Positions 51,001 to 54,000 of a stretch of 64,000 bases of DNA are shown here, piece after piece. The position numbers are program-made. Source of the stretch: Escherichia coli (GTDB lineage: Bacteria > Pseudomonadota > Gammaproteobacteria > Enterobacterales > Enterobacteriaceae); NCBI RefSeq assembly GCF_045037415.1, contig NZ_CP173438.1; one strand, given 5' to 3'. The stretch's first letter is position 1. The number at the start of each line of letters is the position of its first letter.

Positions 51001-54000
51001 TTGTAAATGCAGCGTTCAACAATAATCGACTGTTCAGAAGCGCAGATCACACCATTATCGAAGGTTTTGCTGGTGATGATATCTTTCACCGCATGGTGGA
51101 TATCCGCACTGCGTTCAATAAATGCCGGACCGTTACCAGGACCACCGCTGATGGTCGGTGTGCCAGAAGCATATGCTGCTCGTACCATTCCTTCACCACC
51201 GGTAGCCAGAATCAGCGAAACATCTTTGCTATGCATCAGTTCCTGGGTTGCTTCCAGCGTGAGCTCGGTTACACCATCGACAATACCCGCAGGTGCACCA
51301 GCAGCTTCTGCGGCACGCTTAACGACTTCTATCGCCTTCCAGCTACACTGACGTGCGCCGGGATGCGGAGAGAAAATAATCGCATTACCGGCTTTCAGGG
51401 CGATCAGCGTTTTGTAGAAGATGGTGGAAGTCGGGTTGGTTGACGGCACCAGGGCGCAAATCACACCCAGCGGCACGCCCACGTCCATCACTTTTTGCTG
51501 TTGATCGTCATGAATGATGCCGACGGTCTTCATATCTTTGATGGCATCGTAAACACGCAGCGAGGCGAAACGGTTTTTCAGGACTTTATCCTGCCAGTTG
51601 CCGAAGCCAGTTTCTTCTGCGGCCATTTTTGCCAGTGCTTCAGCGTGGTGTGCTGCTTCCTGGGCCACGTTTTTCACGATGGCGTCGATTTGCTGCTGCG
51701 AAAAAGTGGCCATAATCGCTTGCGCTTTTTTGGCGTTACGCACCAGCACCCGCGCGTTCTGACGGGAGCGCAAATCGGTATCCAGTTCAATCATGAGTCT
51801 ATCCTTCATCAGACTAAAAGAGTGCAGACGGGGCGTGCCCTGTCAGGTCATGCTTTATGCTGCGACGCGATTTTTTCGATGTCGTTATGCGGGCGGGCGA
51901 TGACACGGGAGGTCACCACTTCACCGATACGTCTTGCTGCTTCAACACCGGAATCCACCGCGGCATTCACTGCGCCAACGTCGCCTTTTACCATCGCGGT
52001 GACTAGGCCAGAGCCGACGTTTTCATAGCCAATCAACTCAACGTTGGCGGCTTTACACATCGCGTCTGCCGCCTCAATACAGGCCACCAGACCTTTGGTT
52101 TCGATCAGACCAAGCGCTTCTCTCATTATGTTTTCTCCGGTTAATCGGTAATTTTGTAGTGCGAGACAATCTTGTTGATGTCATTGTGTGGACGCGCGAT
52201 AACCAACGACGTCACCACCTCGCCAATGCGCTGTGCGGACTCAACACCGGAATCCACCGCCGCTTTTACTGCGCCGACATCACCTTTCACCATTGCGGTA
52301 ACCAGACCAGAACCGACGTTTTCATAGCCAATCAACTCAACGTTGGCGGCCTTACACATCGCGTCAGCTGCTTCAATACAAGCCACCAAACCTTTGGTTT
52401 CAATCAGACCTAATGCATCACCCATGTTTCTTCCCTCCGGCCTTAAGCTTTATGTTTAATAACGATTTTGTTGATGTCGTTGTGAGGACGCGCGATAACC
52501 AGCGACGTCACCACTTCCCCGATGTGCTGTGCGGACTCAAGTCCAGAATCGACAGATGCTTTCACTGCGCCAACGTCGCCTTTCACCATCACGGTCACCA
52601 GACCAGAGCCGATGTTTTCATAGCCAATCAGTTCAACGTTGGCGGATTTACACATCGCATCCGCTGCGGCAATACAGGCCACCAGGCCTTTGGTTTCGAT
52701 AAGCCCTAATGCATCACCCATGGTGATCTCCTCAGAACAGGTTTTGTGATTCAGGAAAACCGTCCGTGACACAGCGTTAACTCACGGAAGCGGCGTTCGA
52801 ATGTCACTATAGAGCTCATGGAATTTTGTGGAATTTAAATCTGCTGACAGCAATGATTTAGAATTAAATTCTGAAATTTAGCTTTCAATACACTCTGATT
52901 TATGTATTTGTGCTGGAGTGGTGGGGAGGATTTTGTTTTTAATAATGCGCTTTTTGGCGTATTTTTTTCGCCGGGTATGTTTGTTGCTAAGTTGCTAAAT
53001 AATTACGAAAAGGGGGTAACAGCTACAGCGGTGAAGTGTGTTGGGGCTCATACTTTGGCGCAAACCCTAAACGCAAAAAATGCGCTTTTGCTCAGGGCCG
53101 TTGAGAAGGGGAAAATGGAATGCGTGGTACATCACAAATCGCCTGTGCTATCACGAAGTTAAAGAGTCGTGTTTCTCGTCAGGCGAAGGGGGGACGATGA
53201 AAGTGGTGAGCAATTCGTTGCGTAAGGCAGCCAGAAAAAACTAGTCTAATTTGCTGCCAGATTTAAGGGTACAGATCCAAAGCGGTGAATTAATAGAACT
53301 GAGCAAAATCGCTTTATCGTTCAGCTTCTGGGCGTTGAGGAACAGCCCGTCATGGCTGTCAGACATTTCACGCATAAAGTAGTCAAAAATCACATCTGGT
53401 GATTCATCTATCGATGAGGCGCTGGATTCCCACTGGCTGATGCGGTAATGGCGTTCCGTGGCGGAAACACGTTTACTGGTATAGGTAAATTTGACATAGC
53501 GTTGCAGGTACAGCCAGCCAGCGGCAGAGTCCGTGTAGCCTTCGAGCACCATCGAACCTTTACCCTGGCTGCCAAAGTTAAAGTGAATATTACCGTTAAC
53601 GTTCTCCTTTTCCATATTCTCAAAACGCATGATGCCTTTTGTTGAACAACTCATAATCCCTGTATTTTCAGCAGGGGACAACCGCCAGAAACTAAATCCG
53701 GAGGCGACAATAAACGCCAGGGCGGAAATAGCAAAGAAGGTACGCGGTGCGATTCTCATTACAGTTTCCAAGAGTAATAAAAGTAGTTATCGCAATAACT
53801 AAACGGGTTATTTTCATGCATAGCGCAGTGCGCGAGGAACACTCGCCCAAGGCCGTTGGTTTCCAGCCTGTCACCGTAGAAAAAAAGAAAACGCTCACTT
53901 GGTTTACAGGCGATATTTAGACGCTTACGGACTTCGTCATAATTTTTCTCATATGCCTTCACGCTTACTGAACGGCGCATTTCGTCGCTTGCCAGTAATT

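What the first reader, a model, noticed from the sequence alone, without database searches (positions are those of the whole stretch)
51848..52772. Three tandem near-identical shell-protein genes
The three PduA-type genes are nearly identical at protein level and similar at DNA level, with short spacers. This is a substrate for copy-number change by unequal recombination and a risk of assembly collapse or expansion.
Basis: seen in the sequence. Interest (0 to 1): 0.3.

Follow-up and report, generated by a model that had tools for sequence, protein, structure and literature searches.

The report
Known choline-microcompartment shell gene triplet cmcABC
The three tandem genes are cmcA, cmcB and cmcC, already-studied shell proteins of the E. 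coli choline-degrading microcompartment. They are old, diverged paralogues (about 80% DNA identity), stable at three copies in almost all genomes, and only rarely lose a copy through short shared repeats.

Summary
The array is real. Three single-domain BMC-H genes lie on the minus strand: cmcA 52721..52443, cmcB 52425..52141 and cmcC 52126..51848, with spacers of 17 and 14 nt. They form the start of the cut (choline TMA-lyase, GRM2) microcompartment operon of B2-type E. coli such as strain 536.

"Nearly identical" is overstated. The proteins are 82-86% identical and the DNA 78-82%; dS is 0.8-1.2 and dN/dS 0.05-0.11. The longest exact shared run is 38 nt.

The triplet is ancient. 34 of 35 species-level relatives, from Klebsiella to Photobacterium, keep three genes of about 92/94/92 aa. 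Each position carries its own diagnostic residues.

The window's copy number is canonical. 321 complete E. coli genomes hold the locus, and 319 match the 1201-nt query at 99% identity or more. One has a cmcB/cmcC fusion (a 299-bp deletion at the 38-nt repeat). One has a cmcB-to-cmcA gene-conversion tract.

Public assemblies also hold other 2-copy and 1-copy arrays, most joined at the longest in-register repeats, including three of the four deletion junctions reported from lambda-Red recombineering (Ochoa 2023). Some of these are assembly artefacts. I found no expansions.

The genes, their structures and their functions are known.

The parts
52443..52721 (-). cmcA, first BMC-H shell gene (92 aa), preceded by a GAGGAG ribosome-binding site
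   Evidence: ORF and translation. Pfam BMC E = 1.5e-29. RefSeq CDS WP_000502008.1 in strain 536. Best PDB match is 7mgp, E = 2.6e-53.
52426..52442 (-). 17-nt cmcA-cmcB spacer, GGCCGGAGGGAAGAAAC on the coding strand, with a Shine-Dalgarno-like motif
   Evidence: Sequence.
52141..52425 (-). cmcB, second BMC-H shell gene (94 aa). The literature names it the main choline pore.
   Evidence: PDB 7mpw and 7mn4 are this protein with engineered K25/E35 substitutions. Function from PMC10710832.
52127..52140 (-). 14-nt cmcB-cmcC spacer, CCGGAGAAAACATA on the coding strand
   Evidence: Sequence.
51848..52126 (-). cmcC, third BMC-H shell gene (92 aa)
   Evidence: PDB 7mpv and 7mpx are this protein with K25A (and E35G).
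52313..52350 (-). 38-nt exact direct repeat, copy in cmcB (gene positions 76-113): GCCGCCAACGTTGAGTTGATTGGCTATGAAAACGTCGG
   Evidence: Longest exact repeat in the array. It is the crossover site of the natural 299-bp deletion in IPCEC48 and of the laboratory deletion.
52014..52051 (-). 38-nt exact direct repeat, copy in cmcC
52561..52583 (-). 23-nt direct repeat AAAGGCGACGTTGGCGCAGTGAA, copy in cmcA (gene positions 139-161)
   Evidence: It is the junction of the single-copy A/C fusion arrays L009, L010 and L012-L014 and of a laboratory 595-bp deletion.
51966..51988 (-). 23-nt direct repeat, copy in cmcC
52241..52260 (-). 20-nt direct repeat GCGGTGGATTCCGGTGTTGA, copy in cmcB (gene positions 166-185)
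   Evidence: It is the junction of the 2-copy arrays L015-L017 and the truncated contig L019; in L018 the switch lies just upstream of this run, at gene positions about 162-165. It is also the junction of a laboratory deletion.
51942..51961 (-). 20-nt direct repeat, copy in cmcC
50208..51809 (-). cutF, acylating acetaldehyde dehydrogenase, immediately downstream of cmcC. RefSeq places the start at 51794.
   Evidence: NCBIfam TIGR02518, 713 bits against a cutoff of 620. RefSeq annotation.
41793..50181 (-). Rest of the cut operon: cmcD (EutN-type pentamer, 49924-50181), Fe-alcohol dehydrogenase, cutC (45341-48763), cutD (44342-45289), cmcE (BMC-H, 154 aa, 43866-44330), PduL-type phosphotransacylase, a hypothetical gene and two DMT transporter genes
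   Evidence: CutC equivalog TIGR04394, 1674 bits against 1050. CutD equivalog TIGR04395, 415 bits against 360. Pfam EutN and BMC. RefSeq annotation.
52722..53240 (-). 519-nt non-coding region upstream of cmcA, presumed to hold the operon promoter and leader
   Evidence: No ORF is annotated here. There is no Rfam match at E <= 1 and no sigma-70 consensus hit. The promoter role is inferred only from position.

Best explanation
The three genes are cmcA, cmcB and cmcC. They encode the three canonical hexameric (BMC-H, PduA-like) shell proteins at the 5' end of the choline-utilisation (cut, GRM2 or type II Cut) microcompartment operon carried by B2-type E. coli such as 536, UTI89 and ST131.

They are transcribed together, each is translated from its own ribosome-binding site, and the hexamers tile the facets of the shell that encloses CutC/CutD and the aldehyde-handling enzymes.

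They are old paralogues kept by purifying selection, each with its own role. Published work shows that CmcB is the main choline pore and that each single deletion gives a different aberrant shell.

The genes still share in-register exact runs of 13-38 nt spaced 296-595 nt apart. Short-homology recombination or replication slippage therefore occasionally fuses two copies (3 to 2 or 3 to 1 genes) or copies a tract from one into another (gene conversion). This is rare, and the three-copy state seen in the window is the normal one.

Shown here: gene identity, divergence, conservation and the variant alleles. Taken from the literature: pore and structural roles, and the laboratory deletions. Inferred: the molecular route of deletion (RecA-dependent or slippage).
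For: Identity:
- The 1201 nt around the array are 100% identical to E. coli 536 and many other complete genomes, where the genes are annotated as BMC domain proteins next to cutC/cutD.
- Pfam BMC scores are E of about 1e-29 to 1e-30.
- The CutC and CutD equivalog models both pass their cutoffs.
- PDB entries 7mgp, 7mpw, 7mn4, 7mpv and 7mpx match these proteins; the printed alignments for 7mpw, 7mn4, 7mpv and 7mpx show them identical apart from engineered K25/E35 changes.

Age and selection:
- dS is 0.80-1.24 and dN/dS 0.05-0.11.
- 34 of 35 species-level loci (Kluyvera, Klebsiella, Raoultella, Providencia, Serratia, Aeromonas, Photobacterium and others) have three genes of about 92/94/92-93 aa.
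- In the tree the position-3 (cmcC) genes form one clean clade and most position-2 genes group together; the position-1 genes form a basal cluster rather than a separate clade.
- Fixed diagnostic residues mark each position. Position 1 has the tail I88-K89-H90. Position 2 has Y90 plus two extra residues. Position 3 has N54, A63, R74, E84 and A87.

Function: CmcB S39L alone slows choline use, and the cmcA, cmcB and cmcC deletions give distinct EM phenotypes (PMC10710832). In Klebsiella only cmcC plus cmcD form shells alone (PMC6971018).

Recombination:
- The IPCEC48 complete genome carries a B/C fusion that switches parent inside the 38-nt run.
- The 2-copy allele occurs on backgrounds 0-55 SNPs per 5.3 kb from the window, and one has a different switch point (L006).
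- 1-copy A/C fusions join at the 23-, 17- and 13-nt runs.
- Conversion tracts occur in cmcA with three copies retained (L007, L020, NZ_CP145655.1).
- Three of the four junctions reported in the laboratory (38-, 23- and 20-bp repeats) recur among them.
Against: - Single deletions of cmcA, cmcB or cmcC give no obvious growth phenotype in the laboratory. Natural 1- and 2-copy alleles also exist. The strength of selection for exactly three genes is therefore inferred from conservation, not measured.
- Why CmcA and CmcC, which have identical pore residues, do not carry choline is unexplained in the literature.
- Part of the fusion alleles in public data are probably assembly artefacts. 154 of 373 index blocks for the B/C fusion have contigs under 2 kb, against 607 of 11958 for canonical CmcC. 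L011 is also mis-scaffolded. The natural frequency is therefore uncertain, at roughly 0.3-1%.
Confidence: 0.93

Rival explanations
1. The three copies are recent, nearly identical tandem duplicates kept only for dosage. The array would then be unstable and its copy number would vary freely among strains.
For: Single-gene deletions have little growth phenotype. 1- and 2-copy arrays exist in public assemblies. Pore residues are identical in all three proteins.
Against: dS is 0.8-1.2 and DNA identity only 78-82%. Position-specific residues are conserved across 35 species. 319 of 321 complete E. coli genomes carry the same three genes. Each deletion gives a distinct EM phenotype. No expansion was found.
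Confidence: 0.04
2. The copy number in this window is an assembly artefact: a collapse from more copies, or a false expansion.
For: Tandem paralogues can mislead short-read assemblers. One metagenome scaffold (L011) is mis-joined here, and fusion alleles are enriched on short contigs.
Against: The window matches 319 independently assembled complete genomes at 99% identity or more across the whole array and both flanks. The longest exact repeat is 38 nt, well below read length and the usual final k-mer sizes. The 3-gene layout is the conserved one across genera.
Confidence: 0.02
3. All fusion and deletion alleles seen in public data are assembly chimeras formed at the shared k-mers, so the array is in fact stable in nature.
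For: The commonest fusion uses the only repeat longer than 31 nt. I recall that some large-scale assemblies use k = 31; I did not check this here. Short contigs are over-represented. L011 is demonstrably mis-scaffolded.
Against: A finished complete genome (IPCEC48) has the 2-copy array. A k141 contig of 67.8 kb has it too (L004). Several isolate assemblies carry 1- or 2-copy arrays on 16-59 kb contigs. Three of the four laboratory junctions, which were verified by PCR and sequencing, recur in these assemblies. Kluyvera ascorbata also has a 2-gene array.
Confidence: 0.1

Closest known systems
cmcA-cmcB-cmcC of the Escherichia coli 536 Cut microcompartment (Ochoa et al. 2023, PMC10710832; PDB 7MGP, 7MPW, 7MN4, 7MPV, 7MPX)
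   Same: These are the same genes. The window is 100% identical in DNA over 1201 nt, with the same operon order. The direct repeats are the ones the paper lists as deletion junctions.
   Different: Nothing differs at this locus. Elsewhere the window's strain differs from 536: it has a shorter cdiA and lacks the IS100 insertion in nhaC.
cmcA/B/C of the Klebsiella pneumoniae GRM2 locus (Kalnins et al. 2020, PMC6971018; PDB 6QN1)
   Same: These are positional orthologues in the same operon layout, with very short spacers and the same approximate 92/94/92 aa pattern. Their similarity also caused a practical problem: cmcB could not be PCR-amplified because cmcA and cmcC interfered.
   Different: The species and the DNA differ: E. 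coli genes are 85-89% identical to their Klebsiella oxytoca counterparts. The paper gives spacers of 8-10 bp, against 14-17 nt here.
PduA/PduJ of the Salmonella 1,2-propanediol microcompartment
   Same: Both are canonical single-domain BMC-H hexamers. PduA structures match cmcA at E of about 1e-30. They share the pore serine that was mutated by analogy (CmcB S39L and PduA S40L). In both systems several similar paralogues sit in one operon, with one dominant in substrate transport.
   Different: The metabolic module differs (B12-dependent diol dehydratase against a glycyl-radical choline lyase). From my own knowledge, PduA and PduJ are not adjacent, and the Pdu shell also has trimeric BMC-T proteins, which the Cut locus lacks.
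Tandem carboxysome shell paralogues (csoS1C/A/B, ccmK1/ccmK2)
   Same: These are also tandem BMC-H paralogues encoding the major facet proteins. The CsoS1 and CcmK structures match at E = 1e-21 to 1e-23.
   Different: They belong to anabolic carboxysomes rather than a catabolic metabolosome. From my own knowledge, and not tested here, the csoS1 copies are far closer to identical than cmcABC.

Membership tests
BMC-H shell proteins (Pfam PF00936, single canonical BMC domain) | One BMC domain covering nearly the whole ~90-100 aa protein, scoring above the Pfam gathering threshold | tested here: met
   All three score 102-104 bits against a cutoff of 24.5, over residues 4-79 and profile positions 1-75 of 75.
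BMC-H shell proteins (Pfam PF00936, single canonical BMC domain) | Hexamer-forming fold with a pore loop (G-S-G, S39), an edge lysine (K25) and the R-P-H motif | tested here: met
   The motifs VGSGL/IGSGL, CK(A/S)AN and ARPH are present in all three translations. Solved crystal structures of these very proteins exist: 7mgp, 7mpw, 7mn4, 7mpv and 7mpx. I did not inspect the oligomeric state myself; it is taken from PMC10710832.
GRM2 / type II choline-utilisation (Cut) microcompartment locus | Signature enzyme choline TMA-lyase CutC and its activase CutD in the same operon | tested here: met
   TIGR04394 scores 1673.7 bits (cutoff 1050). TIGR04395 scores 414.9 bits (cutoff 360).
GRM2 / type II choline-utilisation (Cut) microcompartment locus | Aldehyde dehydrogenase, alcohol dehydrogenase, PduL-type phosphotransacylase and a BMC-P pentamer are co-encoded | tested here: met
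   TIGR02518 scores 713 bits and NF011652 278 bits, both above cutoff. The 388-aa product has Fe-alcohol-dehydrogenase family hits that are all below their curated cutoffs, and RefSeq calls it PduQ. EutN_CcmL gives E = 1.6e-15.
GRM2 / type II choline-utilisation (Cut) microcompartment locus | Four BMC-H genes (three in tandem at the 5' end plus a C-terminally extended one) and no BMC-T | tested here: met
   There are three tandem genes plus the 154-aa single-BMC-domain protein at 43866-44330. No two-domain BMC protein lies in the locus. Absence from the rest of the genome is taken from the literature.
Recent near-identical tandem duplication (unstable repeat array) | Copies close to identical in DNA (little synonymous divergence), with variable copy number among close relatives | tested here: not met
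   DNA identity is 77.5-81.8% and dS 0.80-1.24. 319 of 321 complete genomes have the same three genes. 34 of 35 related species have three.

The most novel reading that the evidence does not exclude
Natural E. coli populations, and at least one Kluyvera species, may carry a low-frequency but recurrent polymorphism in shell-gene number. Arrays go from 3 to 2 to 1 genes through fusions at the 13-38-nt in-register repeats, and gene-conversion tracts also occur.

The common 2-copy allele encodes a protein that equals CmcC with only R2G and E3D. In effect it is a natural cmcB deletion, removing the protein reported to be the main choline pore.

Such strains would build altered Cut shells and might differ in acetaldehyde leakage or TMA output. 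I did not find this natural variation described in the papers I read.
Probability: 0.6. Interest if true: 0.3.

Novelty: already known. Interest (0 to 1): 0.15.

Why it matters
For annotation, these are the known cmcABC shell genes, and three copies is correct. The window needs no copy-number correction.

For practice, the 13-38-nt shared runs cause real trouble. They produce deletions during recombineering, PCR interference, occasional fusion alleles and mis-scaffolds in short-read or metagenome assemblies. A 1- or 2-gene cmc array in a draft assembly should therefore be checked before it is believed.

For biology, rare natural cmcB-loss alleles could serve as ready-made variants for testing how shell composition affects choline-to-TMA metabolism in uropathogenic and gut E. 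coli. That is a modest point.

Tried and rejected
- My first exact look-up of the parental proteins failed. I had trimmed the wrong end of the minus-strand references and removed the start codon. I repeated it correctly.
- I looked for expansion products. The predicted C/B fusions at the 38- and 20-nt repeats and the A/B fusion are not in the protein collection. The B/A-like proteins that are present turned out to be gene-conversion patches in cmcA inside normal 3-gene arrays, not 4- or 5-copy arrays.
- The C/A-type protein P0033 occurs only on contigs of 650 nt or less. I did not pursue it.
- The Rfam scan of 51500-53400 gave no match at E <= 1.
- The sigma-70 consensus scan found no promoter-like site upstream of cmcA, and the two terminator-like hits are at chance level.
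- Antisense ORFs across the array (for example 52413-52709 + and 52159-52413 +) have no annotation or support. I treat them as by-products of the coding frame.
- I could not test whether the 2-copy isolates form one clone, because 5-kb flanks are too conserved. The divergent L004 background and the different L006 switch point are the only evidence for recurrence.
- L053 and L055 (Pantoea and Erwinia cutF-like genes without BMC genes upstream) are a different, non-compartment context. I excluded them from the counts.
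Full report
WHAT IS THERE

The interval holds three consecutive minus-strand genes: 52721..52443 (92 aa), 52425..52141 (94 aa) and 52126..51848 (92 aa). 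The spacers are 17 and 14 nt, and each contains a GGAG-type ribosome-binding site.

RefSeq starts the gene at the ATG at 52721, and a GAGGAG lies 6 nt upstream of it.

Tandem Repeats Finder sees one array at 51868-52722 with period 296, 2.9 copies, 81% matches and score 1070. Each product is a single BMC domain (PF00936, E = 4e-30 to 1.5e-29).

HOW SIMILAR THE COPIES ARE

Pairwise protein identity is 86.2% (A/B), 81.5% (A/C) and 86.2% (B/C). DNA identity is 81.8%, 78.5% and 77.5%.

Over the gap-free 258 nt, Nei-Gojobori dS is 0.80, 0.88 and 1.24, and dN/dS is 0.05-0.11.

The longest exact in-register runs are 17 nt (A/B), 23 nt (A/C) and 38 nt (B/C). The 38-mer is also the longest exact repeat in any register.

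"Similar at DNA level, short spacers" is therefore correct. "Nearly identical" is not.

IDENTITY OF THE LOCUS

The 1201 nt around the array are 100% identical to E. coli 536, UTI89-like and ST131 chromosomes. 321 of 5426 complete E. coli genomes carry the locus, always on the chromosome.

In strain 536 the gene order is as follows:
- BMC-H x3
- acylating acetaldehyde dehydrogenase
- EutN-type pentamer
- Fe-alcohol dehydrogenase
- cutC and cutD
- a 154-aa BMC protein
- phosphotransacylase
- a hypothetical gene
- two DMT transporters

A TetR regulator, a winged-helix regulator and a FidL-like gene lie upstream.

I confirmed the enzymes directly. The CutC equivalog scores 1674 bits against a cutoff of 1050. 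The CutD equivalog scores 415 against 360. The aldehyde dehydrogenase scores 713 against 620, and the PduL-type transacylase 278 against 209. The pentamer and the fourth BMC-H were confirmed with Pfam.

This is the type II Cut (GRM2) microcompartment. The genes are named cmcA, cmcB and cmcC in Ochoa et al. 2023 (PMC10710832) and Kalnins et al. 2020 (PMC6971018).

Crystal structures of these proteins are deposited. 7mgp is the best match to CmcA. 7mpw and 7mn4 are CmcB with K25D, or K25A plus E35G. 7mpv and 7mpx are CmcC with K25A, with or without E35G.

HOW OLD AND HOW STABLE THE TRIPLET IS

Using the adjacent cutF as a handle, I fetched 50 loci from one-genome-per-species collections.

Among loci with cutF at 71% identity or more and intact upstream sequence, 34 of 35 have exactly three BMC-H genes of about 92/94/92-93 aa. 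They include Kluyvera, Klebsiella, Raoultella, Enterobacter, Cedecea, Erwinia, Pantoea, Providencia, Moellerella, Serratia, Pragia, Enterobacillus, Aeromonas and Photobacterium.

In a neighbour-joining tree the position-3 genes form one clean clade, and most position-2 genes group together. The position-1 genes form a basal cluster near the root of the position-2 group rather than a separate clade. E. coli A, B and C are each closest in DNA to the gene at the same position in Kluyvera, Raoultella, Aeromonas and Enterobacter ludwigii. In Klebsiella oxytoca this holds for A and C, while B is about equally close to positions 1 and 2.

Each position has residues fixed across the 35 genomes:
- Position 1: the tail I88-K89-H90 (35 of 35).
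- Position 2: Y90 plus a two-residue extension (35 of 35).
- Position 3: K/R2, N54 (34), A63 (35), R74 (35), E84 (31) and A87 (35).

The triplication therefore predates the spread of this locus, and each copy is under its own purifying selection.

This agrees with published function:
- Only the CmcB S39L pore mutation slows choline use and lowers acetaldehyde.
- Each single deletion gives a different aberrant structure by EM, although growth is little affected.
- The triple deletion raises acetaldehyde.
- In Klebsiella, only cmcC plus cmcD form shells alone.
- Hetero-hexamers among paralogues have been proposed.

IS IT A RECOMBINATION SUBSTRATE?

Yes, but weakly, and this is already in the literature. 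During lambda-Red recombineering, Ochoa et al. recovered the following:
- a 299-bp deletion at the 38-bp B/C repeat
- a 299-bp deletion at the 20-bp B/C repeat
- 595-bp deletions at the 23-bp and 14-bp A/C repeats

I then asked whether such events exist outside the laboratory.

Complete genomes. Of the 321 with the locus, 319 match at 99% identity or more over the full length.

One genome, IPCEC48 (NZ_AP026794.1), has two genes: cmcA plus a fusion. The fusion is cmcB-type at every diagnostic site up to nt 75 and cmcC-type from nt 114 onward. The crossover therefore lies inside the 38-nt run.

The fusion protein equals CmcC except for R2G and E3D. The allele is in effect a loss of cmcB.

One other genome, S1-IND-01-B (NZ_CP145655.1), keeps three genes. 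Its cmcA carries cmcB-type bases from about nt 45 to 175, which is a gene-conversion tract.

Exact-sequence look-ups of predicted fusion proteins:

| Protein | Contigs in the collection |
|---|---|
| Canonical A, B, C | 1000 or more each (capped) |
| B/C fusion at the 38-mer | 157 |
| A/C fusion at the 23-mer | 18 |
| B/C fusion at the 20-mer | 4 |
| A/C fusion near nt 100 | 3 |
| Conversion variant of cmcA, P0032 (short cmcB/cmcC-type patch) | 8 |
| Conversion variant of cmcA, P0041 (cmcB-type tract) | 6 |
| Predicted expansion-type fusions (C/B at two sites) and the predicted A/B deletion fusion | absent |

Contexts confirm these architectures. L002-L006 and L015-L018 are 2-gene arrays. L009, L010, L012-L014 and L021-L023 are 1-gene arrays; L024 carries the same A/C fusion but its contig ends inside the gene, so its array length is unknown. 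L007 and L020 are 3-gene arrays with a converted cmcA, and L008 shows a converted cmcA but is cut off inside the third gene.

The 2-gene allele is found on flanks that differ from the window by 0, 1, 3, 13 and 55 substitutions per 5.3 kb. L006 switches parent later, at about nt 151-158. More than one event is therefore likely.

In another genus, Kluyvera ascorbata ATCC 33433 has a 2-gene array that lacks about 296 nt relative to K. sichuanensis. Kluyvera genomosp. 3 has copies 1 and 2 at 95% identity with a 155-nt exact run, a sign of recent conversion.

HOW MUCH OF THIS IS ARTEFACT?

Some of it is. Scaffold L011 contains an A/C fusion followed by cmcC's downstream sequence, then an N gap, then the rest of cmcA, cmcB and cmcC. 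This is either a mis-join or a strain mixture.

The B/C fusion is listed in 373 index blocks, and 154 of them have contigs under 2 kb. Canonical CmcC is listed in 11958 blocks, of which 607 are under 2 kb. Counting only blocks with contigs of 10 kb or more gives 117 against 10701, about 1%. The complete genomes give 0.3%.

I could not inspect reads. The real frequency is therefore only bounded roughly, at a few per thousand to about one per cent.

MECHANISM OF THE REARRANGEMENTS (INFERENCE)

The junctions are in-register exact runs of 13-38 nt, 296-595 nt apart, within DNA that is otherwise about 20% diverged.

From established knowledge, efficient RecA-dependent recombination in E. coli needs roughly 25 nt or more of perfect homology, and mismatch repair suppresses it strongly at this level of divergence. 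RecA-independent slippage or template switching between close direct repeats works on shorter homologies.

Both routes fit the data, and the mosaic tracts in L004 and L006 would fit heteroduplex repair. The sequence alone cannot decide between them.

VERDICT

The genes, their structures, their roles and even their recombination hot spots are published. The only addition here is that the same deletions and conversions occur at low frequency in natural isolates and in another genus, mixed with some assembly artefacts.

Noticed in passing
window 27165-30329 (cdiA), compared with E. coli 536 locus L077 20601-30329: Relative to strain 536, the window lacks 6563 nt inside the contact-dependent inhibition toxin gene cdiA. 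The junction is at about window 28274-28275. The length is not a multiple of three, and the window's ORF from 30329 stops at 27165 (1054 aa, against 3242 aa in 536). This is either an internal deletion or a different allele.
   Followed up: partly
window about 59448-59465: The window lacks the IS100 (istA/istB) insertion that splits the nhaC-family gene in strain 536. Downstream of this point the window is only 97% identical to 536. The source is therefore a related strain, not 536 itself.
   Followed up: no
L028 (Kluyvera genomosp. 3) 3090-3669; L030 (Kluyvera ascorbata ATCC 33433) 3383-3962: In Kluyvera genomosp. 3, shell genes 1 and 2 are 95% identical in DNA with a 155-nt exact run, which points to recent gene conversion. 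K. ascorbata has only two shell genes upstream of cutF. The first has a frameshifted tail, and about 296 nt are missing relative to K. sichuanensis.
   Followed up: partly
L011 (ENA metagenome scaffold ERZ28646943) 1549-2549: The scaffold holds a cmcA/cmcC fusion followed by cmcC's downstream sequence, then an N gap, then the 3' part of cmcA, cmcB and cmcC. It is a mis-scaffold or a mixture of a 1-copy and a 3-copy strain.
   Followed up: yes
L053 (Pantoea coffeiphila) and L055 (Erwinia sp. JUb26), match 4001-5437: These close homologues of cutF (78-82% identity) match only up to query residue 461-471, so they lack the C-terminal ~60-70 aa of the window's 533-aa protein. They also have no BMC genes upstream. 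The C-terminal extension may therefore be specific to the compartment-associated form.
   Followed up: no
window 42572-43237 (minus strand): A 221-aa protein encoded inside the cut operon, between the phosphotransacylase and the DMT transporter genes, has no Pfam family. RefSeq annotates it as hypothetical.
   Followed up: no
window 52722-53240: The 519-nt non-coding region upstream of cmcA has no Rfam match and no sigma-70 consensus hit. I did not identify the signals that make the operon choline-inducible.
   Followed up: partly
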